Below, piece after piece: positions 19,522 through 55,781 of a DNA stretch of 64,000 nucleotides. A program made the position numbers and the translations under genes. Origin of the DNA: Prorocentrum cordatum (lineage: Eukaryota); NCBI GenBank assembly GCA_963575745.1, contig CAUYUJ010000001.1, positions 186,001 to 250,000 on the forward strand, written 5' to 3'. How positions within the stretch are numbered: position 1 is the stretch's first letter; each line of letters opens with the position of its first letter. Below the pieces are notes generated by a model that had not been told where the DNA came from, made no database searches, and saw nothing but the letters and a program-made list of their open reading frames with translations.

Positions 19522-20139
19522 GGGTGGTGGTGGTGGTGGTGGTGGTGGTGGTGCGGCGCGGTGGTGGCGGGCGGATGGGCGCGCGAGAAAGAGGCCCGCG
19601 CTGGGGCGAGAACGCCATCCTCAACGACGGAGGCCAAACACCGATCCGAAAATGAGGCCCACGCTGCAGCGGGAGCACGATTCGGAACGATTCGGGAGCA
19701 GAAATGAGGCCGGCGCCTCAGCGAGAGCAGCATTTTAGGAAAAAACCCAGCGAAAACCCAACTCCGGGGAATCCTGTGTGTAAAAAAAACAGTACGCGGG
19801 GGGGTGCCGAATATCTTCCGGACGCCATCAGGGGAAGTGGGAGAGTATTTTCATATTGTGTAATTGTGGAGGAGGAGGGGGAGGACGGGGAGGAGGAGGA
19901 GGAGGAGGAGGAGGAGGAGGACAGGGAGGAGGACAGGGAGGAGGAGGAGGAGGAGGAGGAGGAGCGCAAGCAGGAGCAGGAGCAGGAGGACTGGGAGGAG
20001 GAGGACTCAGGGCTCGCACCCTGTGTTTTTTTCTTTAAAAAAAAATAAACAGGGAAAGTCACTAGGCTCAAACTGGGTTGTCGGCCCCCGGTTTACAACA
20101 GCAACAATGGTTCCAGCTTGATACTTCCTCACAATGTAT

Positions 20140-21300
20140 TCACAGACCGCGCTCTCGCGCGGGACGTCCTCACAATTTGAATACGAATCGCGCTCTCGCG
20201 TGGGACTTCATCGCAGTTTATTCCGACGATGCGCCCTCGGCGCTCAGGAATCACGCTCTCGCTTTGGTTTGTTTCACGATTTACTTGGGAATCGCGCTAT
20301 CGCTCGGGACTTCTTCGCGATTCATGCAGGACCCACGCTTCAGCAACCCGCCTGCTCGACATGGTCGCCTGGGCCCGCCTTCTCGACCTGCCCGCTATGT
20401 GTTTGCCCACCCGATCAGCCCGTCTGGTTCCACCACTTGTTTTCTGCTCCTTGCCTCCCTCCTAATTTCTCTCGTGCTCATGATTCTCCCTCCCCCTTCC
20501 ACCCGTCTTCTCTTCCCTTGTTTTAGGGGCTGCACTGTATGCACATGGCAGATAAGGAAGATGTACCCCAAGGGGGAACGATCGAAGACGACGAGGGCGG
20601 GCACCGAGGGTTTGGGATATACGTATTGATTGGCACGTGAGCAGATAGGAGCGAACATAATTAAAATGAGTGTTGTTGTTGGTTTTGCTGTTGTTGTTGC
20701 TGTTGCTGCTGCTGTTGTTTTGTTCAATACTCATTGCTTCAGAATAATGATTGCTGATCTCCGGAAACGGTTCCACGCGCTCTCGCCTCGACGCCGGCTC
20801 CCGCTCGAGCGTTGGCGTGAGCCTAAATGGGGGCCCTTGGAGGCCCAGCTACAACGACAACGGCTCTCGCTCGATATTTAGCTCACAATTTGCCCCGAGG
20901 CACCCTGGCCAGAGAGGCCCCCGAACTCAGGAACGGCGCTCTCGCTTGAGACTTCCTCGCAATTCAATCAAGTTGGCGGAGGCCCAGCCACGACGGCAAG
21001 GGTTCCTGCTCGATAATTCCTCACGGTTTACTCCGAGAGCCCCTGGCCAAGAAGCCCCCGAACTCAGGAACGGCGCTCTCGCTCGAGACTTCCTCGGTCA
21101 GTGGCCGACAAGGAAGAGATTCCCCCCGAAAGGGGTTGCAATCGAAGACGGAGTGGGCGGGCATCGAGGGTTTAGGGTATACGGAATGCAAGGCACGAGT
21201 GCCAGTAAGAGCGAACAGTCTTAAAATGATTGTTGTCGTTGTTGCTGTTGGTGTTGTTCATGTTTCTCGTGTTGTTCGTGTTGTTCGTGTTCTTGTTCGT
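20140..21300 (+). repeat. two related units carrying CGCTCTCGCTCGAGACTTCCTC-like subrepeats, each ending in a conserved block and (GTT)n
   Basis: 20565-20720 and 21122-21300 share ATCGAAGACG…GGGCGGGCA.CGAGGGTTT.GG.TATACG…GAGCGAACA…TTAAAATGA. Confidence 0.7.
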
Positions 21301-22055
21301 GTTCTTGGTGGTGGTGGTGGTGGTGGTGGTGGTGGTGGTGGTGGTGGTGGTGGTGGTGGTGTTGGCGTTGTTGTGATTGGGCTGGCCTCCGGCCAGTGCC
21401 GCCGGGGGGGGTGAGACTTGGGGACGTCTTGGAGGTTTCTGGGGCATCTAGGGCGGTGCGAGCGATGTTTCGGCGATTCGGGGCCCTCTTGCATTGTCTA
21501 GGGGGCCTCTGGGGCCTCTCGTGGCTTCCTCTTGGGCTGTCTTGGGCGGTCAGGGCTCCGGAAGTGGAGTTTTCTATACCCCCGTGTCGCTGGGTACCGA
21601 AAAACGTCGGAAATGACGTCGAAAATATCCCGGTGTGCCGAAAAACGTCGGAAATGACGTCGGAAATAACGTGCCCCCCCCCACTGCAGAGCGAAGCTTG
21701 AGCGAGCTCAAGTCCACTCTCTCAGAAACTCACACGCCGGATCGGCGGATTTGTTGTCGTCGTCCCGCCCGAGACTTGGCCCGCGAATCACCCGCGTTCC
21801 ACCCGCGACCCGCCCGTGACACTCCCGCGACCCACCCGCGACCCGCCCGCGAACCACCCGGCGACCCACCCGGCGACCCACCCGCGACCCACCCCGCGAC
21901 CCACCCCGCGCCCCACCCGCGACCCATCCACGACCCACCCTCGACTCTGCCCTCAACCCGCGCGATTGTGGATCGCATTCGCCAGAGTCTCCAAGGAGGA
22001 CTCCATAGAACGTCGCAGGCTGTTGTTTGGAGCAGGGATGGGGGCTTGGCTAGCC

Positions 22056-22213
22056 TTAGGTCGGGCATGTCCCCTTACAGGAGGAACATTCAGAAATAGT
22101 AAAAAAATAGTCGGGGGACGATTTTTTGAGTATGTCCGACTATTTGTGAGTATTGTTTGACTACTCTATGTTTTTCGCCAAAAATCCGCCTGTAGGAGAC
22201 ACGCCCGACCTAA
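22056..22213. mobile_element. MITE family A (158 bp, ~25-bp TIR, 8-bp TSD)
   Basis: GGCTAGCC|TTAGGTCGGGCATGTCCCCTTACAGG … CCTGTAGGAGACACGCCCGACCTAA|GGCTAGCC. An 8-bp TSD is typical of the hAT and P superfamilies. Confidence 0.9.
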
Positions 22214-22621
22214 GGCTAGCCCCGCCCACGCCCGCCGCCGACGCAGGCCTGGAGCGCGACGTGGTCGACCTGGCCAGGATGCTGAAAGAGCTCAAGGCGG
22301 CCGACGCGCGGGGCGCGACGAGGAAGGGCGAGGCGTCGAGAGTCAGGCGACCGCAACACATGGATTAAGCGAATCTAGGGTTGTGGTCCGCCTCGGAGCC
22401 GCGTCCGGCCAATCTCCGGCCTGACTGTTGGGCTCAGTGTCGGAGCGGCCTCGGGGGCTGCCTCGGCCTCCCATGGTCTCCTTGTGCCCCGCGTGGATCA
22501 GGCGATCGAACACATGGAGCAGGGGGGCGGCGTGGATTAGCGACGGGTCCCGTGTCCGTGGGAAGTCGCGGATTCCCGCCGCCGAGCCAGGGCGCGACAG
22601 ATTCGAGGAGGAAGAAACGCC

Positions 22622-22789
22622 AGAACCATAACCGTTTGGCGCTCCGCGCGGATTTCGCGGATCTGCGCTGGGCCCCCCCGGCGGCGCCTCCAGCGCCGCC
22701 ACAGGCGCGCTCCGCGCGCCAGGGAGGGTGGTCCGGCGCAGATCCAAGAAACCCGCGCGAAGCGCCACAAGTTTATGTTTATGGCTTCT
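22622..22789. mobile_element. MITE family B copy
   Basis: Inverted arms CGCGCGGATTTCGCGGATCTGCGC … GCGCAGATCCAAGAAACCCGCGCG. Confidence 0.75.
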
Positions 22790-22983
22790 TTTTTATTCTA
22801 GATACAATCGAAGCACGAGGTCGCAGAGACAGGGTTCGAAATTCGAGGTGCCCAGACGATATCGTCGTCGGGTCTCGCCGGCTTTCTGGCCTCGGGACGT
22901 TTTTCAGCGGCTGCGCCTTGTTGTAAGTCGGACCTGTCCTTCTACAGGAGGGGTATGTTTGAACAATTTTGGAGCATTTTTGG

Positions 22984-23175
22984 TCGATAAAATGAGACGA
23001 TGTTTTCAACGTGGCAATGGCCCCCGAGGAGTTCAGCTAACCTCGGTCTGGCCTCGTCGCTTTAGCGCTCTGGGCCAAAATGCCTACAGTGAAGTGTGCG
23101 CACGCCCCTGCCGTTACGACGGATTCTGCAAATTTGGTCGTCGGGCTTCTGTCGCCCAAGGGCTATAGGGCTATA
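22984..23175 (-). repeat. 3' terminal direct repeat (192 bp), candidate structured RNA
   Basis: Matches 26571-26762 except C23037/A26624. Ends in (GGGCTATA)2 on the + strand. Confidence 0.95.
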
Positions 23176-25406
23176 AACCTCCACCGACCCCAACCAACCT
23201 CCATGTAATATCGCACCACGCTGAGGGTGCTGCTGCCTGGACAAGCATTGAAACTCATTAGTTTGTGCAGCAAGTGGCCTTCTGACAGTCTGAAAGACAC
23301 GCGAGGGGTCTTTAACCCGCTCGTGCCAAACAACCGCTCGGCCTCCCGGAATACGCGGTTAAATTTCGCATGTTCCCATTCTCTGTAGTAGGGAAGAATG
23401 ATAAAGCCGTCATTCGCACGGGATGTGTATTGGGCAGAAGGAGAGGGATGTAGGCTCAAATCGACACCGCCTGTCGCACGAAAGGACTCAGAAAACTGCG
23501 ATATGCAAGCTTTTGCGGCCTTCGCATTGCTATTCAAGGACATGTATCGATGAATCATCGCGAAGGGCCATGCCATGTGCACATGAAAGGGGTGAGCAGA
23601 CGAGATAGAGAGCGGGGTAAAGATGGAAGAAGGCTTCGTGTGGCAGAACGACGAGAGTTTCCCTGACTTTCTCCATTCAGCATCCTTTCTCAGCTCTACA
23701 TCTAGCATCGTGGTTGCCTCGGTCGATCTACTCTCGAGCTCGATTTTGAAAAACCTGCTCCTCTCCATCATGCGTCTCAGAAAGAGTCCGTGCAAGCCAC
23801 TACTGACGTCGCCCCGGAAAATGATGAGACCATCATCTTTGAATCTGCCGTAAAATTTTACACCATGGTGTCTTCGGACATCGGGTCGAATGACAAATGG
23901 GGCCTCAACCATGCTGTGGAAAGCGGCGTCGGCCACTTCGCCCGAACATAGGAGACCCATGCCTGTGCCAAGCTCTACCTTACAAAGTCGATCCGTGCCT
24001 TCAGCACTGATGAGTTGATTGCGAAGGATAGCCAGAAGCAAAATCTCATAAATTCTCTTATCGTCGGCGTCGTCGAGCAGCTCGCTGGATTCATCAACCA
24101 GTTCCTGGTGCGATCCGCTCATGAAAAAATATTTTATATCGAAACGTACGAACACATCGTCCGCATCCACCTCAACATGACCAAGCTGTTTGAGTAGATC
24201 GTGGGTGTCACGTAAAATGTGTATTTGTTGCCTCAACTTTGGCTTCAACATCGAAGACACGTGAACCATGGCGCCGGTCATTGGGTTCCCCGCGCTTGCG
24301 TGAATTGGACGCAACTTTACGTCACCAGCACGCTTGTGAGTTTTAACCGTGTTCTTCAAAGTCGATACCATATTTCTGTATCCATTGTGGGCCCAACTCA
24401 AGACCGAATGGCAATATGAAAAGTCGTTCAGTATTGTACCCACATCCATCACGCTTTCTTTGAAGCTGTCGAAAAATTCCTTTGGGGTGTCGCTCGTGCC
24501 ATCTACCTCACGGTAGTTAGAACCTCCCAGAATCTTGAGACGTGCCTCCAGGAGATGTTATTTAGCCACCAAGCAATATCCTCCATCTTTGTCTGTGGGG
24601 AGAATACCAACCGTGCCGAACTTCAGTATGTCAAGCGCTAGACGGTGAACGCCAGAAACATTTGAAGTCGAGTGACGATGACTGAAAAATCGCCCTCTCG
24701 CTACTCGGCACGCCTGCCAGATGCCATTGGTGATGTATTGCAGATGGGCCTCCACCTGAGGAGACATATTGTAAGGGCATGCAGGGGTGATGCGTCTTCG
24801 CGCTCTCAGGTGCCACCAACGGTTGGTGTCCTCTCCTGCATAAAACAACTTCCACTTCTGACGGTGATACCAATTACTCAGAGATTGGCCGACTCGCGCA
24901 AGGTCAGGGGCCTTGCGTGTTCGCAAGACGTGCTTTCTATGAAGGGTGAGCAAGAATTCAACAGGCCAACATAATACACTTGCTGCCGGGCGGTGAGCCG
25001 TTAGGTTGACCGCGTCCCACATGTATACATCGGGACTCGATTTGCCGCACTTCAGAAGTACTTTGAAATCTGATATGCTCATCCCTCTCACCATTTTCCA
25101 GAATAGCCTTTCCCCTGTTTGGCCTTGCCCTTGCCGTATCCTGCTTTCCCAGAGTTTGATCCTCCTTTTCCTTTTTTGCCACCTTTCGGAGTTGACGTAG
25201 TCGTCGCTTTGCCACCGCCTTTGTCGTAACGGTCGCCCTTGCCCCCAGTCTTGTCGTAACGGCGCTGGGCGTCGGTCTTGCCTTTCTTGCCCTTTGGAAG
25301 GTACTTGCCGTCGTAGCCCTTGCCTTTGGTCTTGCCCTTGCCGTTGCTCTTGGCTTTGACTTTTGCTTTGCCTTTGGACCCCGCCGCCGCCGGCGGGGGA
25401 CCGCCG
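23163..25406 (-). CDS. Penelope-like reverse transcriptase (one in-frame TAA at 24558-24560)
   Basis: ILPTDKDGG, KTHK, LRPIHAS, RFDIK (motif A), GTGMG (B'), GRFKDDGL (C), MLDV, TKP and SAHPFH (PLE thumb). Track ORFs 24558-25820 and 23163-24452 are the same frame, linked by HLLEARLKILGGSNYREV. Confidence 0.88.
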
Positions 25407-26543
25407 TTTTTTTGGTTTGAGCGCGCTCTCCACCAGCTCTTCGCTCACCATGCCCTCGGTGCCGACGCGCTTCATGATCTCTGCGGGGTCTACGTCCACA
25501 TTCGCTTTGGCTGCCAATGCCTGGATCGGATCCTTCTCCCGAGGACCTTTTCCTTTTCGCCCGCCTTTGACACCAAGACTACGCAGACGTTCGTCCAACC
25601 GTTTATCAATTGTCATCTCAACGTATTCTTCGGGGGTCTTTTCCACCAGCTTCTCAATCAAAAGCTTCTTGCTCGTGAGTTTGTCTTGTTGAACCTTTCC
25701 TCTTGCGTCCTCCGCTGCCGCTGCCTTGTCAACAACTTGCTTGTATATGGTCGTCACCTGCAGCTCGAGCTCATCTCTGCTCATGCCTGCGAGCGTAGCC
25801 TGGTCATCATCATTGTCCAAATCTAATTTTGACTATACTGTTCTCTGCTCGTCGTTCAGGCTCATGCAACGTTCAACGAAGTTTGACCGTTTTGTCACCA
25901 TTCTCAAAGACCGTTTTGTCACCATTCTCAAATTTGTTCTCTGCGCCTCTAGCAACTGAAGGTCAAAGTTCTTCTGTAGCTTGACCATCTCCTTGTGGAC
26001 AATGGCCTTGGCATCACGAATGGAAGTATTCTGGTCGATGTTGATGGCCGTAGAAATCGCCTCATTGATGCGGATTGTGTCTAGAAGCGGTGTCTCGAAG
26101 TGTATCGGGACTCGGCGTAGTCCACGTCTTGGTGGAAGTTCCCCAGGTGGTGTTGGATCCATCTCTCTGAGGACGTCCTTGCAAGACTGAATTGAGCGGT
26201 TCGTATTCTGTAAATTTTGAATTTTAGCTCCCAGTTCTGACGCGTGTTTCTTCACATGACGGGTGATCTTTGGACATTGATTTGTGCCCAATCTCACATC
26301 CACCAAGCGCCGTATATCCGCCGTGAGAGGTGGATACGTATGCGTCCTTGTTGGGCTTGGTGATCGATCCCACGCTGGAGGAGAACGGCTCCTCCCACGC
26401 GTCTGGACTGCGCTCCCTGGTTCCACCGGTTGCGGTTCATGCAATTGTCGTCTATGCTGCCGTGTTTGGGGCCCCGCTGCAGGGGCTTCAAGGGCACCTC
26501 CACCACGGGGGGCACCGCCGGCAGACACATCCACGTCGCCCAT
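25088..26543 (-). CDS. ORF1 of the Penelope-like element: charged helical/coiled-coil-like protein with a GKG-rich basic tail
   Basis: ATG at 26543 and an in-frame TAG at 25833-25835. With six A's at 25407-25413 it would read …PKNGGPPPAAAGSKGKAK…GKGYSGKW* to the TGA at 25088-25090. This copy has seven A's. Confidence 0.7.
25379..25413 (-). promoter_or_regulatory. -1 programmed ribosomal frameshift cassette
   Basis: A_AAA_AAC heptamer, 7-nt spacer, then an 8-bp all-GC hairpin CCCCGCCG-GCGG-CGGCGGGG. Confidence 0.75.
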
Positions 26544-26570
26544 CGCTCAGGAAAGTACAGTACCGAAAAC

Positions 26571-26778
26571 TCGATAAAATGAGACGATGTTTTCAACGTG
26601 GCAATGGCCCCCGAGGAGTTCAGATAACCTCGGTCTGGCCTCGTCGCTTTAGCGCTCTGGGCCAAAATGCCTACAGTGAAGTGTGCGCACGCCCCTGCCG
26701 TTACGACGGATTCTGCAAATTTGGTCGTCGGGCTTCTGTCGCCCAAGGGCTATAGGGCTATAGGGCTATAGGGCTATA
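26571..26778 (-). repeat. 5' terminal direct repeat extended to (GGGCTATA)4
   Basis: 192-bp repeat plus two extra octamers. The four units span 26747-26778. Confidence 0.95.
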
Positions 26779-26936
26779 GGGGGACAGGCCCGACCTAAGC
26801 CTTGTCGAGAGCTTTCCAAGGGGGCGCCCGGATCGCCGCGAACGGCCGCCAGAGGCCCGAGTCTGGGCCCCCACGGGGCCTCAGATGTCCGACGATCTGA
26901 TCGCTTCAAAGCGATGATTTGAACTCGATTTAGTCT

Positions 26937-27330
26937 AGGCCTCCCAGATGGGGTCGGAGTACACCTTATGCGATGCTTAAGAAAACCTAAGTTTTCGGCC
27001 AGAGTCTCGATTATTCTTAACGTTTCAATGTGAACCCCAAGATTTTGATAGAAGTTCTGGGTTTTATTCAATTTCTGAGACTATGAATTTCTTAACCCAT
27101 GGTTTCTTAAGCATTTCGCAGGGTGTAGATGGGGTCGGAGGATCGCGCCGCATCGCCGATGCATCGGCGATGCTGCTCGATGTGGAGCCCGACTTGCTCC
27201 ACGTCGACGTCGCCGATGCACCGCCGATGTCGACGTTGCATCGTCGGTGCATCGCCGATACGTCGCCGATGTATCGGCGATGCGGCGCGATCTTCCGACT
27301 CCATCTCCTCCGACCCTATTTGGGAGGCCT
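26937..27330. mobile_element. palindromic MITE-like family C (CATCGCCGATG-rich); relatives at ~2895-3030 and ~27800-27968
   Basis: AGGCCTCCCAGATGGGGTCGGAG … CTCCGACCCTATTTGGGAGGCCT termini and long internal inverted arms. Confidence 0.75.
26962..27125. mobile_element. 164-bp AT-rich MITE with TA TSD, nested in family C
   Basis: TA|CACCTTATGCGATGCTTAAGAAAACC … GGTTTCTTAAGCATTTCGCAGGGTG|TA. The uninterrupted site GGAG-TA-GATG is seen in reverse at ~27940-27950. Confidence 0.85.
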
Positions 27331-27517
27331 CTATGTAGGCATCTGCGGCCCGCTGTCGCGCCCCAGGGCCGTCAAAAATGGATCTTGGGCGAAAAATTGA
27401 CCCCGGGGAAGGAGTCGGATCGGCGGATGTCAGGAGAGAGAGAGAGAGGGAGAGGGAGAGGGAGAGAGAGAGAGAGAGAGAGACCATCACAGGCTATTAG
27501 GGAAGGCAAGGCTAGGC

Positions 27518-27676
27518 TTAAATCGGGCCTGTCCCTCTACAGGGGGAATATTCAAAAATAGCCAAAGAGTAGTCTGGGGACTATTGTTTAAAACTGTTCT
27601 GGACTTTTTTTATTTGTGTAAACTATGTTTCAGTTTTCGTCCAAAATCTGCCTGTAGGGGGACAGGCCCGACTTAA
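27518..27676. mobile_element. MITE family A (159 bp)
   Basis: GGCTAGGC|TTAAATCGGGCCTGTCCCTCTACAGG … CCTGTAGGGGGACAGGCCCGACTTAA|GGGTAGGC. Confidence 0.9.
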
Positions 27677-28108
27677 GGGTAGGCCGACCCGACCCTTGAC
27701 CAAAACCTTAGGTTACATCCGATCATCCACGTACGCTCTCTTCGGCCTGCCTCTGAGCCCCTTCCTTGAGGAGCTCTGCGGCAGGGATCGGCTGGGGAAG
27801 TCGGGGGGGCGGCCTTCCAAGTGTTTGTGGGGCGTCGGCTGCCGACATCGCCAGTGCATCACCGACGTTGCCAGTGCATCGCCGATGCATCGCCGATACA
27901 TCGCCGGTACATCGGCGATGCGGCGCGATCCTCCGACCACATCTACTCCGACCCCATCTGGGAGGCCTCTACTCATTCGGGAGGCTCCGCTCCCACCCCC
28001 CACCCCACCCCCAGCCTCTGCACCGCATCGCCCCCTGGAATCTGGCCGCCCCCCGCTCCCGCGAAGCGCTTCGTAGTGGGAGGGGGGTCGAAGAGGAACG
28101 GGGCCTTA

Positions 28109-28281
28109 CAGTCAACCCGAGTAGTAAGGATGGGCAGCCGTCCCAAGGGTACCTTTGCATCCTTCCTTCCTCGGCCCATGCTTGGCCACTTTCGTTGGCC
28201 GCGCCCCGCTCGAAAAGCTTCGACGTGGCCTTCCAAGGCCCTTGCATCCTTATCGTGCATCCTTATTATACTGGTTGACTG
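28109..28281. mobile_element. pogo/Tc1-type MITE
   Basis: TA|CAGTCAACCCGAGTAGTAAGGATG … CATCCTTATTATACTGGTTGACTG|TG. Confidence 0.75.
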
Positions 28282-28579
28282 TGCAAGGGAGGCCTCCTGG
28301 GGTCCCGAAGCTGCGCGAAAGGCGCACCCGTTCTCCACCCCCGAATTTCTCGATTGCCTCCCAGTGAAGCGACGCCCGCTCCCGCGCTTCGCGGGGCCCC
28401 TGCAGTGCATGTTTGACTGATGCACACGGCAAATCCATGACAGTGCACATGTGGGGAATGTGTTCCATTAGTCGTTTGTCGCTCCTCCTCCCCTCTAATA
28501 TTGTCCGTCCTGCCTCTCTACCTCAGCAGGAGGAGGAGGAGGCGGAGGAGGAGGAGGAGGAGGAGGAGGAGGAGGATTT

Positions 28580-31500
28580 GTTTGTTAAATTGCGCCGCTG
28601 CCAACCAAACTCCAGAGTGCAAGAGATGCAGGGGTTGCCAGGCAGGGATTAAAGGATTACGGCACCCAGCACTTGGAGGTCTTATAGGGCGGGAGACCTT
28701 TACAACCCCGCTGCAGAACCTCGCGCTGGTGCTTGGTGATGGCATGCGGTTCCAAGACGGCCATTGGACAGGGCTCCCGCAAAGAGTCAGGGCGAGCTAT
28801 TGCCCTTCGCCACATTCACCGCGGAAAGTGTGGGCACCTGTCTGCCACAAATTGTGAGAGGGATGGACCGCTTTCCCAGCAACCCAAGGCGAGACTAGCT
28901 CAGGGAGCGGGTCGAGCCGCAGAGAGCGCCAGAGGGAGTTCTCCCTGGCAGGAAGATGCCGTCCAGGCCTCGCCCAGTTCTTGGTTGTGACCTCCGCCTC
29001 CACCGACCCCCCAACTCCACCTCCTCCAGAAGCAGGACAGGCAAAGCAGAGCGTCGCTCGAAGCGAGGGGGCGACGTCGGATATCGAAACTTTGCACAAC
29101 CCACAGGTCCAAACTCCCAAACCGAAGTCCCAGACGCGCGACGAGATAACACCAGCTTCGATCCACCGACGCCAGCGGAGCACCAAATCGTGCGGTTGGT
29201 TGCGCAGCCTGCAGCCGGGCTCGGCCTTAAGGGCCGCACTTTCGAGGATATAGACGCATTGCGCTTGAGGATGAGGCAGGCAATGGAAACGAACTCGTGA
29301 TTACCCTTGGCAACACCATCAGGGACATGGCACTTCCGGGCTCGAAAATCGGCAGGCTCATCAGCGACAGAGTTGAGCACAACATGGTCCCAGTCCACAG
29401 AGTCGCCAAAACGGGCGAGTTTCTGGGGGCAGCAGGTGGTTGGGGACATGGGAAAGCCGAAAATCACCCGAGCGCTCCGAGAGGAGCTGCCAGAATTCCC
29501 ACCAGAGGTCAAAATTGGCCAGCCTCGCAGAGGCCGCACGGCCCGCCAGAAAACATTGGAGAACGTCAGCGTGGTCGGTAGCCACGTGCAGAGCTTGGGA
29601 AGGGTCCACACAACGCAAACACCCGACGATGACCGCGAGCTCTGCACTGGGAAAAGCCTGTCGAACCGAGTCGAGCATGCCCGTGACTCCACAGCCCCAG
29701 CCGAAGTCTTCCCCAAGTCGGGGCCTCACACAGGCGAGCGCAACTCTACGGAGGACCGGAAATTTGGCAAATGGGCCACCAGTGCCGTCGGTGGCGCACA
29801 GGCCTCCTGGCAAGATGCCCGGAGACTGGGGACACGGCCCCAGGACAACGCCGCCCCTGGTGATCTTTGGGGCTGGGCACAGGAGGGAGGTGAAACCAGG
29901 AGAGGAGACTACGCCTTCGCATGCAGAAGCACTGGTACTGGGCGCCCTTTTGCAGAGCACCGTGCCTCAAGCGCCGGGATTCAACAACAATCTCTTGGAC
30001 CTGGGACGAGGCGTTGCACATGCATTCCCAGAACTTGCGCGACGAGGTCTCGGGGTCACGCATGCACGTGCGCCAGGAGCCATCTGGGCAGTGCGCCATC
30101 TCTCCTCAGCCCAGTATCCGCCAGAGACCAAGAACCGAATCATAGTCGGGAGGCCCCGGCGCCCACCCTTGCCAAGGGGGGCAACACTGTCCCAGACATG
30201 GCGAAGAGAGACGGGCCCCTGGACCCACCGCCATCGAGGTGCTCAGCAGCCTGGCGCCGCTGGAGCGCGCCGATGGATTCGTCGAAGTTTTCGGGCAGCG
30301 GGCCCAGAGGGTCGCGCCCATTCTCCATCATCTGCCACGCATCTCCACAAGGGGCAATGAGGGAAAAAAAAGGCGAGGGGCATTGCCCATCGACCGCCAT
30401 GATAGTGGCTTGAACGGCCGCCATCGGACCACGGACCCAGGCCCGCCCCGTTTGGACTTTGGCAAACGAGGCCGCCCAGCGCCTGGCCAGACGACGCAAG
30501 AGATCCGGGCGACCAGCCAAACGAGAGTACCAAGACTCAACGACACGACGGACATAGACCTGGAGGGGGTCCCGGCCGAGGCCGAAGGTGTAGGCGGATG
30601 GCAGTGGTGGCGCGAATTCCTCTCTGAGGGGCTTCACTAGCAGCTCGCGCCACATCGCGCAAACCTGTGAGCACTGACGGAGAAGCACCGTGAATCCATA
30701 GCGCCCACGTGACCTTTGCATAAGCAGTGGGGCAGAACAACTGACTGGATTGCTTGCAAGTGCTGTCGAAACGAAAAATCGCGTTAGTGAGATCCCGCCC
30801 CTTGGAGAAGCGGGTTTCCTGGCGGCCACAGCCCCCCAGGCGCCCAGGGCGGCGTCGCGCCCCGGGCCCCGAGCCGCGAGAGCGACCGGAAACTCGCAGC
30901 CCTCGCGGACGGCAATCCTGGAAAGCTCAGCCCGAAGGGCAGGCGAGGAAGCGAGCAGATGGCCTCACACCAGCGCTTCCTCAGGCCCGCGAGGAGGGCG
31001 AGAGGCAGGGTCGGAAAGGCAGCGGCAATCGAGGCGCGCGCGCCGAAGAGACGAGCAGAGGCATCATCAGCCCGCCCCCGAGGCCGACGGCCACCGACTG
31101 ATCCACTGGCTCCCGCAAAGGGGATGACGCAAATGCGCGCGGGCGAGGGAGGCGGCCTGGCCGCGTCCAGCCGACGTGCTCAGAAGAGCCAGGATACCTG
31201 GATGAACAGCTCCCTCAAACGACAAATGCCGCGCCCCCGCACGCACATCAACGGCCAGGGCGTCGGAGCGGGCACTTTAATTCGGCAGCAGCGTCTACCA
31301 GGTCAAGCAGGCAAACCTGGTCATGCTATTTCTTCAAATCGAGCAATATGCCCCCGACGTGGAAACCGCCCAGGAGGGCCAGTTCCGGTCCAAGCTCATC
31401 AAGCCAACCAGCCGAGCCACAACGTTCTGGCCCCATGGCCCAATGTGCCTCACGGCCCCGCGCCGCGACGACAGGATTCTCGATGCGCCGGAGAAGAGCG

Positions 31501-54132: not shown

Positions 54133-54270
54133 GAGTATTCAAAAATAGTCGAAATATCGCCAGGGGGCGATATTTTCTGCATTATTTGTCAAGTTCCGAA
54201 CATTTTCTTGGCATCTTTCGAAATTCTCGCCCAAAATCTGCTTGTGGGGGGGGGGACATGCCCGACCTAA
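54133..54270. mobile_element. MITE family A copy lacking its left TIR
   Basis: TATTCAAAAATAG…CCAAAATCTGC…GGGGACATGCCCGACCTAA. Confidence 0.7.
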
Positions 54271-55781
54271 ACATAGGATAGTTCAGCGGTGGACAAACCT
54301 TCCTTTAACAAACCACTAGTAAAAACGGCCTGGAACCGAAACCGACGGAGCTGGACTCGCAAAACGAACGGCCGCGACGCCCTGTCGCGAACCAGAAACG
54401 GCCAATTCGCTTATCGACGCGTCAGGGTAGGAGGTCTACCAACCTCGGAAACACAAGATAGTGGTGGTTTTGGAATCCCGAAACGGTGCGGTGACAGACC
54501 GTGCGGTGACCTCGGAACCCCAACAAGAGACCTCATCGCACGGTCCGTTACCGCACGGTCTTGGGACCCCGGAGGCCCCTGTCGCCCGAGACGTCCTCGG
54601 TGAAGGACTCGAGTCCCAAAACCGTGCGGTGACCTCGAATCCACACCGACTCACCGCACGGTGTGGTCACCACCCTGGCGCCTCCCGGCGCAGGAGGCGT
54701 GGGCCCCTCGGTGGGGCTGAAACCAGCTGCATGCAGTAGATTTCGTAACCCCTTTTCCCCATCCCCCCCTTTCGTTCGGTCCGAGAAACATAGGGTAGTG
54801 GTGGTGAAGATTGGCCCATCACGCTTCCGGAGCACCTCCGCAGCGGCGCGCAGACCGCGGGGCGGCGCCTCTCGCTGCGCCCGGCCCAAGGCGCGCGGCC
54901 GCGGCACACGCTGGCCGACCGCGCCCGAGGCGGGCGGCTCCGCGGGCCGCGCGGCTTCCGCGCGGCCTGCGCGGCTCAGGACGTGGCGTTAACCATGCAG
55001 CCCTGGCCCCCAGGAGGACGGGGACGCGGAGGAGGACGAGAGGGAGGAGGAGGACGAGAGGGAGGAGGAGGAGGAGGAGGAGAAGGAGAAGGAGAGGGAG
55101 GAGGAGGAGCAGAAGGAGGAGGAGGAGGAGGAGGAGGAAGGAGGAGGGAGGAGGAGGGAGGGAGGGGGAGGAGGAGGAGGAGCAGGAGGAGGAAAGGAGG
55201 AGGGAGGAGGAGCAGAAGGAGGAGGAGGGAGGAGGAGGAAGGACAGGAGGAGGAGGAGCAGAAGGAGGAGGAGGAGGAGGAGGAGGAGGAGGAGGAGAAG
55301 CACGAGGAGGAGGGCGCACGGCGCAGAGGACCTAAACATGCTCGCTTCGTCGAGTGAAAAAGTCAGGACGGGCCTCGGGATGAACGAAGGCGGTCCCGCC
55401 CAGGGGGTCGGGACTTCCAGGGACCTGGAGCTGAGGAAATCCGAACGTCGCACGTCTGGGGATCGGGCTGGTGGTACTGGGGGGTGACCTACATGGGAGG
55501 TGAAGAAAAGGGCCCTGAAGGGGCCCTGGAGGGCTCCTTTTGGGCCCCTGCTGGCTCCAACAAGGGCCCTAAAGGGCTCCTTCATGGCCCTTGTCTTCGC
55601 CCCCATTTGGGTCTCCCCCCCCGTTACCACCCGCCCGAGGGGAGAGCTCCCAGAGGAGCCTGGTCGGACCGGACCTGAGATCTGGGCGTCTCGGAGGTTG
55701 GCCGGGCTAGGTGCACTGGGGGACGCCTCCCCGCCCCAGTCCACTCATTGGATCTGCCGCCCCCCGATGAAGCATCAGTTT

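What the first reader, a model, noticed from the sequence alone, without database searches (positions are those of the whole stretch)
22984..26778. Endonuclease-less Penelope-like RT with its own repeat template: candidate telomerase-like retroelement
Seen: a PLE-type RT with no GIY-YIG domain and 192-bp direct repeats. The internal copy has (GGGCTATA)2 overlapping the RT stop codon (ATA GCC CTA TAG). The outer copy stops exactly at this motif and has (GGGCTATA)4. Since the RNA is the minus strand, the extra G-rich units lie at the cDNA 3' end, and the RNA offers a C-rich two-unit template (UAUAGCCCUAUAGCCC), the same polarity as telomerase. Known: PLE RTs are the closest retroelement relatives of TERT, and EN-deficient PLEs (Athena, Coprina) associate with host telomeric repeats. 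Here the octamer is element-encoded, differs from the TTTAGGG reported for dinoflagellate telomeres, and the site looks interstitial. Inference: the RT realigns on its own template and adds repeats reiteratively.
Basis: partly seen in the sequence, partly recalled or inferred. Interest (0 to 1): 0.92.

Follow-up and report, generated by a model that had tools for sequence, protein, structure and literature searches.

The report
Endonuclease-less Penelope-like retroelement in a dinoflagellate
This is a real, recently inserted copy of a jumping gene whose copying enzyme resembles telomerase and lacks a DNA-cutting domain, but its eight-letter end repeat is also a very abundant repeat in a sequencing run that holds the element, so the idea that the element makes the repeat itself remains unproven.

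Summary
A 3.8-kb retroelement lies on the minus strand (22984-26778). It has 192-nt direct repeats with one mismatch. GGGCTATA occurs twice across the RT stop codon and four times at the outer edge.

The RT gets no Pfam hit. A confident model matches TERT best (Z 14.7-17.4), and profile and Atlas searches link it to Penelope-like elements (PLEs). No endonuclease was found. It belongs to a large family (1845 cluster representatives).

The copy replaced about 70 nt of a hairpin repeat loop, without target duplication, and is joined through TAGGG microhomology.

Against the "own private template" reading: in the best run, octamer arrays reach summed depth 65,887 against 10-30 for the element body.

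For it:
- The extra units are not target-derived.
- One relative (L010) has a different motif, short inside and about 250 nt outside.
- A conserved G-rich box lies 2-3 nt upstream of the repeat start in 3 of 5 readable junctions.

Verdict: a new endonuclease-less PLE lineage with a satellite-matching tag. Telomerase-like reiteration is possible (about 0.12) but unproven.

The parts
26747..26778 (-). Outer octamer array, (GGGCTATA)4 on the plus strand and (TATAGCCC)4 in element sense. It is the 5' edge of the insertion. The last TAGGG is shared with the target.
26571..26762 (-). Upstream (5') copy of the 192-nt direct repeat (pseudo-LTR 'U'), including two octamers.
26658..26674 (-). Relic of the dinoflagellate spliced leader (15 of 17 core bases) inside the upstream U, on the sense strand.
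   Evidence: leader sequence read in PMC5585692
23163..26543 (-). Long reading frame of 1127 codons from ATG to TAG. The N-terminal half is low-complexity, basic and helical; the C-terminal half is the RT. Two in-frame stops in this copy: TAG 25835-25833 and TAA 24560-24558. Contigs of runs X1/X3 read sense codons there (24560 A>G gives CAA; 25834 T>C gives TGG).
23166..25097 (-). RT protein P0001 (644 aa): N-terminal domain with PTDKDGG (24593-24579), RT core (FDIKYFFMSG, GTGMG, RFKDDG), thumb, and a small C-terminal domain of about 65 aa with no conserved polar residue.
23178..23202 (-). G-rich box in sense (GGAGGTTGGTTGGGGTCGGTGGAGG). It ends 2 nt upstream of the inner octamers and is the most GG-rich 30-nt window of the locus.
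23160..23175 (-). Inner octamer pair overlapping the RT stop codon (ATA GCC CTA TAG). It is the first 16 nt of the downstream U.
22984..23175 (-). Downstream (3') copy of the 192-nt direct repeat. The element's 3' end is at 22984.
23071..23087 (-). Spliced-leader relic in the downstream U.
22924..22983 (.). Left part of the disrupted hairpin (MITE-like) repeat: one inverted-repeat arm (22924-22951) plus about 32 nt of loop, up to the element's 3' junction.
   Evidence: (D10)
26779..26799 (.). Right inverted-repeat arm of the same hairpin repeat (GGGGGACAGGCCCGACCTAAG). About 70 nt of loop between the two parts is missing. There is no target-site duplication.
   Evidence: (D11, I8, I10)

Best explanation
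This is a young copy of an endonuclease-deficient Penelope-like retroelement. It belongs to a large family that my searches found in no paper, and its host is a dinoflagellate. The unit is about 3.6 kb: a 5'UTR, one long ORF ending in a TERT-like RT, then a G-rich box, a two-unit octamer and a short 3'UTR. It is bracketed by 192-nt pseudo-LTRs.

Proposed mechanism:
1. Having no nuclease, the element used a free DNA end at a break inside a palindromic MITE-like repeat to prime cDNA synthesis at the RNA 3' end (22984).
2. The RT copied the whole RNA and then continued into a second copy of U. This happens either because the RNA is terminally redundant or because the RT switches template, as in other PLE partial tandems.
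3. Synthesis stopped at the conserved G-rich box that lies just 5' of the octamers in the RNA.
4. The cDNA therefore ended in GGGCTATA repeats, and it was joined to the other side of the break through TAGGG microhomology, with loss of about 70 nt of target.

The two-unit octamer matches a very abundant tandem repeat found in the run that best holds the element. I read it as an end-joining or homing tag, the counterpart of the reverse-complement telomere repeats of Athena and Coprina. I do not read it as a private template.

The two extra outer units most likely arose when the RT stalled at the box and slipped or re-aligned once or twice on the two-unit repeat. That would be occasional stuttering, not a dedicated processive activity.

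Shown: the anatomy, the RT kinship, the absence of a recognisable endonuclease, the target deletion and microhomology, the abundance of the octamer repeat, and the position of the G-rich box. Inferred: break priming, the stop at the box, the tag function, and the origin of the extra units.
For: Anatomy.

RT kinship:
- AlphaFold model with pLDDT 92.3.
- In the VIA-align second look, the top 14 of the 50 rows shown (997 chains aligned) are all TERT, with Z 14.7-17.4 over model residues about 28-555. LINE-1 ORF2p, R2 and group II RTs follow at Z about 14, aligned mostly from residue about 171 on.
- ESM Atlas neighbours of relative P0003 carry DUF8422 + HTH_animal + RVT_1, with or without GIY-YIG. 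The commonest phylum is Rotifera, and TM is 0.70-0.78 over about 550 residues.
- The family profile reaches four proteins, all with RVT_1 and two with weak C-terminal GIY-YIG hits.
- hhalign of the family against P0165 gives probability 97.5%, E 6.5e-12.

No endonuclease: no Pfam family for the RT piece or 9 relatives. The C-terminal domain has no invariant column.

Family size: 1845 cluster representatives at E<=1e-3.

Direct repeats are general in the family: 8 of 33 metagenome contigs have identical ends, which implies head-to-tail units of 2.9-3.6 kb (L004, L005, L009, L011, L016, L019, L020, L031). L010 and L012 have U at both sides.

G-rich box:
- The most GG-rich 30-nt sense window of the whole locus lies within -48 to +71 nt of the RT stop in 11 of 18 elements.
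- It falls inside the ORF in some elements and after the stop in others.
- U begins 2-3 nt after the box in the window, L010 and L012.

Target: the element replaced about 70 nt of a hairpin-repeat loop. The junction reads CTATAG|GGGGACAGG against CTGTAG|GGGGACAGG in intact copies.

Youth: 1 mismatch between the two U copies.

Octamer abundance: bin 26642-26787 has summed depth 65,887 in X1 (12,600 in X5; 956 in X2; 813 in X3), against 10-30 for the body. Several hundred contigs carry more octamers as loose ends on either side.

A relative with a telomere-type tag at the same place: L018 reads CTAAACCCTAA across its RT stop, which is 1.4 units of the reverse complement of TTTAGGG.

Known parallels (passages read): Coprina-1_Alen has direct repeats, a coil domain, RT and thumb, with telomeric repeats at both ends (PMC13159263). 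[quoted passage not shown]
Against: - Only one copy of this family has a readable outer edge.
- In 2 of 5 readable upstream junctions (L032, L001) the upstream copy starts inside the ORF. In L032 it starts beyond the G-rich box, so the box is not an absolute stop.
- There is no microhomology at the 3' junction (TTTTTGG|TCGAT), so break priming is inferred, not seen.
- The tag sits 176 nt from the 3' end, not at the end as in Athena.
- No hammerhead was found.
- Whether the abundant octamer arrays lie in the same organism as the element, and where on its chromosomes, is not shown. X1 is a single-organism run by its label, but I could not check it further. Short (GGGCTATA)6-8 tracts also occur in three bacterial records.
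- The spliced-leader relic in the middle of U shows that U spans an old 3'UTR-to-5'UTR head-to-tail joint. That fits several ways of making the repeat and does not single out mine.
Confidence: 0.5

Rival explanations
1. Same element and same insertion route, but the outer 4-versus-2 difference has nothing to do with the RT. Three versions are possible:
- The source copy already had 4 or more outer units and the transcript starts within or upstream of them.
- The units were added at the DNA level after or during integration by replication slippage.
- The G-rich cDNA end was extended on one of the many genomic octamer arrays before end joining, or the tract was gene-converted from one.
For: - Octamer arrays are plentiful, so they are available as templates or partners.
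- L010's outer array holds blocks of variant units ((TTGTTTG)n, then (TGTGTTT)n, then (TTGTTTG)n). That is the look of a microsatellite evolving at the DNA level.
- L012 has essentially no expansion.
- EN+ PLEs are reported to prefer microsatellite targets (PMC8557442, passages).
Against: - The two U copies differ at 1 of 192 positions, which leaves little time for two unit gains from a two-unit tract. This is inference; no rate was computed.
- The pre-insertion target had no octamers.
- A contig of X1 at depth 22.8 spans the inner junction with exactly two units (record 2).
Confidence: 0.25
2. The element's TERT-like RT uses the two-unit UAUAGCCC stretch of its own RNA as a template, with the G-rich box on its 5' side acting as a template boundary. 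It adds GGGCTATA repeats reiteratively to DNA 3' ends. This activity would cap the cDNA end and might even have produced the abundant octamer arrays.
For: - TERT is the best structural match, including the N-terminal domain.
- The extra units are at the cDNA 3' end and are not from the target.
- The box lies 2-3 nt 5' of the motif in three subfamilies that share only 24-28% protein identity with the window's RT.
- L010 repeats the pattern with another motif and a roughly 250-nt outer array, next to a U pair that is 100% identical over 213 nt.
- The arrays are far more abundant than the element, as expected if synthesis does not need a full insertion.
Against: - Only +2 units are seen here.
- The arrays contain many variant units (GGGCTATT, GGGCGATT and others, tables 5c and 7) and L010's array has variant blocks, neither of which a fixed template would produce.
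- L012, L032 and L001 show no expansion.
- A relative 46% identical over the RT part (P0020) ends ...MEVAWGRRWHNV, so the octamer is not conserved even nearby.
- The U RNA has no unusual folding energy (z -0.78).
- No biochemical evidence exists.
Confidence: 0.12
3. The copy did not retrotranspose here. A break in the hairpin repeat was repaired by DNA synthesis copied from a tandem array of the element elsewhere (microhomology-mediated templated repair), and both junctions fell at arbitrary points of the array.
For: - The insertion covers more than one unit in both directions when the unit is counted from the spliced-leader relic.
- There is microhomology at one junction, a target deletion and no target-site duplication.
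- Head-to-tail arrangement is general in the family.
Against: - The same U-body-U layout, with the upstream edge 2-3 nt from the G-rich box, recurs in L010 and L012. Arbitrary junctions would not do that.
- U depth is about twice body depth in X1 (22.7 against 10-14). That fits two U per copy as the rule.
Confidence: 0.08

Closest known systems
Coprina and Athena/Terminon endonuclease-deficient Penelope-like elements
   Same: - RT without an endonuclease.
- N-terminal DK(G/N) motif and thumb.
- An upstream basic/coiled region.
- Terminal direct repeats.
- A short C-rich (in sense) repeat tag carried by the element, with G-strand repeats at the 5' edge of copies.
(Passages in PMC8557442, PMC6431247 and PMC13159263.) ESM Atlas neighbours are commonest in Rotifera.
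   Different: - The site is interstitial, not telomeric.
- The tag is GGGCTATA, not the host telomere repeat TTTAGGG.
- The tag lies at the RT stop, 176 nt from the 3' end, not at the very end.
- No hammerhead ribozyme was found.
- The host is a dinoflagellate; two searches found no paper describing PLEs of dinoflagellates.
- Phylogenetic placement among PLE clades was not tested.
Canonical EN+ Penelope-like elements (Penelope/Poseidon, Neptune, Nematis, Naiad/Chlamys)
   Same: - RT homology: hhalign probability 97.5% to P0165, and the profile reaches proteins with weak GIY-YIG hits.
- Pseudo-LTRs formed by partial tandems.
- 5'-truncated upstream copies, as in L032.
- Naiad and Chlamys also lack canonical hammerheads (PMC8557442).
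   Different: There is no GIY-YIG domain at either end. The insertion has a target deletion and microhomology, not an endonuclease-type junction.
Telomerase (TERT plus template RNA)
   Same: - TERT is the best structural match (Z up to 17.4, 298-411 residues aligned in the TERT rows).
- The extra repeats are G-rich and lie at the 3' end of the synthesised strand.
- A short C-rich two-unit stretch in the RNA has a distinctive element directly on its 5' side, where telomerase RNAs have their template boundary (that placement is recalled, not from a call).
   Different: - The RNA is the element's own mRNA.
- No processive addition is shown (+2 units).
- TERT-specific motifs were not tested.
- The repeat is not the host's telomere repeat.
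Endonuclease-independent LINE-1 insertion at DNA breaks, and 3'-tail slippage of LINEs such as the I factor and UnaL2 (all recalled, no call)
   Same: Use of pre-existing DNA ends, target deletions, no target-site duplication, microhomology at the 5' junction, and RT slippage on short tandem repeats of the template.
   Different: A different RT clade. Here the variable repeat lies at the 5' (late) end of the copy, not at the 3' initiation end.

Membership tests
Penelope-like elements (RT) | Conserved DKG-type motif in the domain N-terminal to the RT core | tested here: met
   PTDKDGG in the window. K170 is invariant and D169, D171, G172, G173 are at least 90% conserved across 48 family members. 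The motif aligns with ADKSS of P0165. The motif is named in PMC8557442.
Penelope-like elements (RT) | Sequence or structure homology to RTs that carry the PLE domain set (DUF8422 + RVT_1 + HTH_animal, with or without GIY-YIG) | tested here: met
   hhalign probability 97.5%, E 6.5e-12. The profile search reaches P0164-P0167, which have RVT_1 in 4 of 4 and weak GIY-YIG in 2 of 4. Atlas structural neighbours have TM 0.70-0.78. Direct hmmscan of the window protein and 9 relatives found no Pfam family.
Penelope-like elements (RT) | Pseudo-LTRs from partial head-to-tail tandems | tested here: met
   192-nt repeats in the window. 8 of 33 related contigs have identical ends. L010, L012 and L032 have an upstream partial copy.
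Penelope-like elements (RT) | Hammerhead ribozyme motif in the terminal repeat | tested here: not met
   No hammerhead at E<=1 in window 20000-30000 or in 15 related loci. Minimal hammerheads can escape such scans. Naiad and Chlamys PLEs also lack them.
Penelope-like elements (RT) | Placement inside the PLE clade in an RT tree with TERT and other RTs | not tested
   No named PLE or TERT reference sequences could be obtained.
EN-deficient PLEs (Athena, Coprina) | No endonuclease domain | tested here: met
   No GIY-YIG or other nuclease family in the three ORF pieces. The C-terminal domain of about 65 aa has no invariant column. Modelled alone it gave pLDDT 66 and a best Z of 2.9, which is uninformative.
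EN-deficient PLEs (Athena, Coprina) | Attachment to telomeres, flanked by host telomeric repeats | tested here: not met
   The site is interstitial, inside a hairpin repeat. No TTTAGGG tract lies at either end; the nearest 1.5-unit match is at 21168, 1.8 kb away.
EN-deficient PLEs (Athena, Coprina) | Short reverse-complement telomeric repeats at the 3' end beside a hammerhead | tested here: not met
   The tag is (TATAGCCC)2, 176 nt from the 3' end, with no hammerhead. One relative (L018) has 1.4 units of CCCTAAA at its RT stop.
Telomerase-like reiterative RT | TERT-like catalytic fold | tested here: met
   The top 14 rows are all TERT, Z 14.7-17.4, more than 1 Z unit above most non-TERT rows. 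A shared fold shows no function.
Telomerase-like reiterative RT | Repeated copying of a short internal RNA template onto a DNA 3' end | not testable with these tools
   Indirect only: 4 outer against 2 inner units here, about 250 nt against about 18 nt in L010, and no expansion in L012, L032 or L001.
Telomerase-like reiterative RT | Template boundary element on the 5' side of the template | tested here: inconclusive
   A conserved G-rich box lies 2-3 nt 5' of the repeat start in 3 of 5 readable junctions. Its function is unknown.

The most novel reading that the evidence does not exclude
A retroelement-encoded, TERT-like RT that uses a two-unit template inside its own mRNA, bounded on the 5' side by a conserved G-rich box, to add tandem repeats to free DNA ends. 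That would be a living intermediate between Penelope-like elements and telomerase. This activity, with a different motif in each subfamily, would be a source of abundant simple satellites in dinoflagellate genomes.
Probability: 0.12. Interest if true: 0.95.

Novelty: new variant of a known kind. Interest (0 to 1): 0.62.

Why it matters
- Endonuclease-less PLEs are the closest retroelement relatives of telomerase and have been described mainly at telomeres of rotifers, fungi and a few other groups. This is a large family (1845 cluster representatives), and two literature searches found no description of PLEs in dinoflagellates.
- It shows such an element entering an internal chromosome break. 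Its repeat tag matches an abundant non-telomeric satellite rather than the telomere repeat.
- A conserved G-rich box marks where the terminal repeat begins.
- A spliced-leader relic inside the pseudo-LTR records a head-to-tail RNA joint, which bears on the long-open question of how PLE pseudo-LTRs form.
- The telomerase-origin idea becomes directly testable: the family offers naturally intact RTs, a defined 3'-terminal RNA and subfamilies with different motifs.

Tried and rejected
- **Whole genome.** None is held for this window, so copies could not be counted in the genome.
- **Earlier findings of the scan.** Nothing on this genome or on look-alike sequences. A word search returned only rotifer Athena notes.
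- **Hammerhead or other known RNA.** No hammerhead in window 20000-30000 (only weak miRNA-like hits on neighbouring palindromes). In 15 related loci the only hit was a sub-threshold Twister-P5 match in L018.
- **Folding of the 3' 232 nt as RNA.** z -0.78; 50 of 200 shuffles fold as well.
- **Sequence searches.** A sequence search of the RT against PDB chains found nothing. The family profile found only a Drt3a RT at E 0.057.
- **Relatives in other collections.** None in viral contigs.
- **Exact U-plus-octamer pattern.** 0 matches in genome contigs and in viral contigs.
- **(GGGCTATA)4 pattern.** 0 matches in viral contigs. Three bacterial records have 6-8 units in unrelated contexts, which says nothing about the element.
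- **Literature search for the octamer.** Swamped by T7-promoter primers: 10,127 papers.
- **Papers.** Gladyshev & Arkhipova 2007 is not held; I cite it only through other papers. PMC8110479 gave no telomere sequence.
- **C-terminal domain folded alone.** pLDDT 66, best Z 2.9. No conclusion.
- **LTR-retrotransposon reading** (G-rich box as a polypurine tract). Considered and set aside. The box contains many T, the RT has no RNase H or integrase domain by Pfam, and its fold neighbours are TERT and PLE, not retroviral RTs.
- **Octamer as the host telomere.** Not supported by the papers read (TTTAGGG in dinoflagellates including a symbiodiniacean), but not excluded for this particular organism.
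- **Runs X2, X3, X5.** They hold small shares of the element's words and were laid together with X1. I draw nothing about habitat from them.

Full report
**1.

- The repeat finder reports one two-copy direct repeat of 192 nt, at 22984-23175 and 26571-26762, 99% identical. blastn gives 99.479%, one mismatch.
- The 16-mer GGGCTATAGGGCTATA occurs only at 23160-23175 and three times overlapping in 26747-26778. It appears in 0 of 100 shuffles. Single octamers occur nowhere else in the window.
- On the minus strand one frame runs from ATG at 26543 to TAG at 23165-23163, and the inner octamer pair overlaps that stop.
- This copy has two in-frame stops (TAG 25835-25833, TAA 24560-24558). Contigs of public runs read 25834 T>C (TGG; X1, one contig, depth 9.95 of 9.95) and 24560 A>G (CAA; X1 14.5 of 14.5, X3 3.2 of 3.2). 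Open-frame copies therefore exist.

**2. What the protein is**

Direct sequence searches say little:
- Pfam finds nothing in the RT piece even at E<=1. The other two pieces give only sub-threshold noise.
- A sequence search of PDB chains finds nothing.
- A profile of 48 relatives finds only a Drt3a RT at E 0.057.

The protein nevertheless has many relatives. There are 16 in the word-indexed search. In the exhaustive search there are 1845 cluster representatives at E<=1e-3, 896 at 1e-10 and 172 at 1e-30; the full-length hits among the 150 listed are mostly 600-680 aa. The 48-member alignment shows PTDKDGG, VKTHKP, FDIKxFFMSG, GxGMG, RFKDD and a thumb-like SxHPxxVHxxWP block.

Structure and profiles place it:
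- An AlphaFold model built on that alignment is confident (pLDDT 92.3, pTM 0.91).
- Foldseek finds RTs and viral polymerases.
- In the VIA-align second look (997 chains aligned, 50 rows shown) the first 14 rows are all TERT. Z is 14.7-17.4, with 298-411 residues aligned, spanning model residues about 28-555. LINE-1 ORF2p, R2 and a group II intron RT follow at Z 13.9-14.3, mostly from residue about 171 on.
- The ESM Atlas neighbours of relative P0003 carry PF28514 DUF8422, PF26215 HTH_animal and PF00078 RVT_1. Some carry PF01541 GIY-YIG. TM is 0.70-0.78 over 541-576 residues, and Rotifera is the commonest phylum.
- A profile search reaches four more distant proteins (P0164-P0167). hmmscan finds RVT_1 in 4 of 4 and a weak C-terminal GIY-YIG in 2 of 4, both below Pfam's cut-off.
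- hhalign of the family against P0165 gives 97.5% probability, E 6.5e-12, over 368 columns that include the DK motif, the RT motifs and the thumb.

I conclude that this is a PLE-type RT. No named PLE or TERT sequences were available for a tree, so its clade is open.

**3. No endonuclease**

- The family's proteins end about 90 residues after the thumb.
- That tail is a small alpha/beta domain (W-VLPYHP-W ... AW-L). Across 15 members it has no invariant column and only one nearly invariant Trp.
- Modelled alone it is poorly defined (pLDDT 66) and matches nothing (best Z 2.9).
- The N-terminal 660 codons of the window's ORF have no Pfam family above threshold.

**4. Where it sits**

- Both flanks belong to one copy of a dispersed hairpin repeat of about 170 nt, with inverted arms of about 30 nt. 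Intact copies lie at about 22042-22227 and 27512-27682, and a further arm at 54251.
- Aligned to the intact copies, the left flank keeps one arm plus about 32 nt of loop. The right flank starts at the other arm, and about 70 nt of loop are gone.
- There is no target-site duplication.
- The outer junction reads GGGCTATAG|GGGGACAGG where intact copies read GCCTGTAG|GGGGACAGG. TAGGG is therefore shared between the last octamer and the target, and the target itself had no octamer.
- This is what one expects of an element without a nuclease entering at a DNA break and being joined by microhomology. Break priming itself is inferred: the 3' junction (TTTTTGG|TCGAT) shows no homology.

**5. The octamer is not private**

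- I searched public runs for the element and laid four of them on 22700-27050 at 85% likeness or more.
- In X1, a run labelled with a single organism that holds 57% of the element's sampled words, the element body has summed depth 6-31 per bin (mostly 10-30) and U has 22.7. The bin holding the four octamers has 65,887. The same bin reaches 12,600 in X5, 956 in X2 and 813 in X3.
- The loose ends are more octamers on both sides. In X1 there are 236+119+63 contigs before 26746-26748 and 33+312 behind 26779-26781.
- The letters between joints show variant units (GGGCTATT, GGGCGATT, GGGTTGTT).
- So (GGGCTATA)n is a very abundant and diverged tandem repeat in a sample that carries the element, far more abundant than the element.
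- I cannot say where on the chromosomes it lies. The papers I read give TTTAGGG as the dinoflagellate telomere repeat, including in one symbiodiniacean (passages in PMC11453091 and PMC11508785).
- One X1 contig (263 nt, depth 22.8, one difference) spans the inner junction with exactly two units.

**6. Relatives' DNA**

A pattern scan of metagenome contigs returned 33 loci that encode relatives. No hits came from viral contigs.

- Eight of the 33 contigs have identical ends of 91-141 nt (L004, L005, L009, L011, L016, L019, L020, L031). This implies head-to-tail or terminally repeated units of 2.9-3.6 kb.
- The upstream edge of the repeat can be read in five elements:
  - Window: U starts 2 nt after the G-rich box; 4 units outside against 2 inside.
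  - L010: the 213-nt repeat (817-1029 = 4523-4735, 100% identical) starts 3 nt after the box. The motif there (TTTGTTTTTTGTTTGTTT) is preceded in the upstream copy by about 250 nt of (TTGTTTG)n, with an internal block of (TGTGTTT)n.
  - L012: the repeat (363-514 = 3767-3919, 88% identical) starts inside the stop codon, 3 nt after the box, with at most one extra triplet outside.
  - L032: the upstream copy begins 104 nt before the stop, inside the ORF.
  - L001: only the last 71 nt of the ORF are repeated.
- So 3 of 5 edges lie at the box and 2 of 5 do not. Two of 5 show an expanded motif, each with its own sequence.

**7. The G-rich box**

- In 11 of 18 elements with a defined RT stop, the most GG-rich 30-nt window on the sense strand of the whole locus lies within -48 to +71 nt of that stop.
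- In four more elements only 1-6 windows score higher. L001, L015 and L021 are exceptions.
- The box (core like GGATGGTTGGGGATGG) is inside the ORF in some members and after the stop in others. It is therefore conserved as nucleic acid, not as protein.
- By chance a 120-nt zone would hold the maximum in roughly 3-4% of loci of this size (simple arithmetic, not a call).
- It could form a two-layer quadruplex or bind the RT. That is inference.

**8. Spliced-leader relic**

- The leader is given in PMC5585692 (abstract and introduction passages).
- A 17-nt core of it matches both U copies on the element's sense strand with 2 mismatches (23071-23087 and 26658-26674). There is no other match in the window and none in 100 shuffles.
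- Among the 33 loci one sense-strand match with 3 or fewer mismatches exists, in L009, 115 nt after the RT stop. There are 0 antisense matches, and mononucleotide shuffles give a mean of 0.2.
- This supports a dinoflagellate host. It also shows that U spans an old joint between the end of a 3'UTR and the capped 5' end of an mRNA, as expected if pseudo-LTRs began as head-to-tail RNA-templated tandems.

**9. How it most likely works**

I commit to the following route:
1. Break-primed reverse transcription from the RNA 3' end.
2. Continuation into a second U, through terminal redundancy or a template switch.
3. A preferred stop at the G-rich box.
4. A cDNA end made of the octamer tag.
5. Microhomology-mediated capture of the other DNA end.

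The tag's match to an abundant host repeat suggests a function like that of the reverse-complement telomere repeats of Athena and Coprina (passages in PMC8557442, PMC6431247 and PMC13159263). So does the 1.4 units of reverse-complement TTTAGGG at the same spot in L018.

My odds for the two extra units are:
- slippage or re-alignment of the stalled RT, about 0.3;
- DNA-level events, or extension on genomic arrays, about 0.3;
- inheritance from the source copy, about 0.25;
- anything else, the remainder.

A dedicated, processive telomerase-like activity gets about 0.12.

**10. Comparison and novelty**

- The element works like an endonuclease-deficient PLE and passes the RT, DK-motif, pseudo-LTR and no-endonuclease tests.
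- It fails the tests for telomeric location, a telomere-repeat tag at the 3' end and a hammerhead ribozyme.
- Two searches ('Penelope-like' + 'dinoflagellate'; 'Penelope' + 'Symbiodini' + 'repeat') found no paper describing such elements in dinoflagellates. The hits are coral and other genome papers, judged from listings only. Curated repeat libraries could not be searched.
- I rate it a new variant of a known kind.

**What the missing steps leave open**

- No count of outer against inner units across copies was possible.
- No RNA ends were determined.
- No RT tree was built.
- The octamer arrays were not located on chromosomes.

Noticed in passing
window 22042-22227, 27512-27682, 22924-22951 + 26779-26799, 54251-54271: A dispersed MITE-like hairpin repeat of about 170 nt, with inverted arms of about 30 nt (CTTAGGTCGGGC.TGTCCC..TACAGG) and an AT-richer loop. 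One copy is the target of the retroelement. The arm pattern (up to 3 mismatches) gives six matches in the window, against 0.02 expected from shuffles.
   Followed up: partly
window 23071-23087 and 26658-26674 (minus strand); L009 2773: Relics of the dinoflagellate spliced leader inside the element's terminal repeat, in sense orientation. They imply that the pseudo-LTR spans an old 3'UTR-to-capped-5'-end joint.
   Followed up: partly
window 23178-23202 (minus strand) and the RT stop region of 11 of 18 related elements: A conserved G-rich box (GGATGGTTGGGGATGG-like) at the end of the RT ORF or just after it, independent of reading frame. The terminal repeat begins 2-3 nt downstream of it in three subfamilies.
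   Followed up: partly
L018 2050-2066: The RT stop codon of this relative is embedded in CTAAACCCTAA, about 1.4 units of the reverse complement of the dinoflagellate telomere repeat. This is the same position as the octamer pair in the window.
   Followed up: no
L018 3393-3431: Weak match to the Twister-P5 ribozyme family (29.3 bits, gathering score 37.6, E 0.036), downstream of the element.
   Followed up: no
window 25885-25932: A perfect 24-nt tandem duplication inside the N-terminal part of the ORF (LRMVTKRS twice).
   Followed up: no
window 22700-22845 and 26934-27050: Flanking stretches with very high summed contig depth in the runs (7,857 and 12,952 in X1). These are high-copy dispersed repeats unrelated to the element.
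   Followed up: no
window 27120-27330 and 27843-27971: Blocks of 11-nt palindromic CATCGCCGATG-like repeats that form long inverted repeats. They produce spurious sub-threshold mir-33 and mir-598 hits.
   Followed up: no
L034 737-800, L035 about 3001-3050, L036 about 1042-1098: (GGGCTATA)6-8 microsatellites in three bacterial genome records (one Marinomonas isolate and two MAGs), in contexts unrelated to the element.
   Followed up: partly
L004, L005, L009, L011, L016, L019, L020, L031: Metagenome contigs of the family close on themselves (identical 91-141-nt ends). This could come from collapsed terminal repeats, from tandem arrays, or from circular molecules.
   Followed up: no
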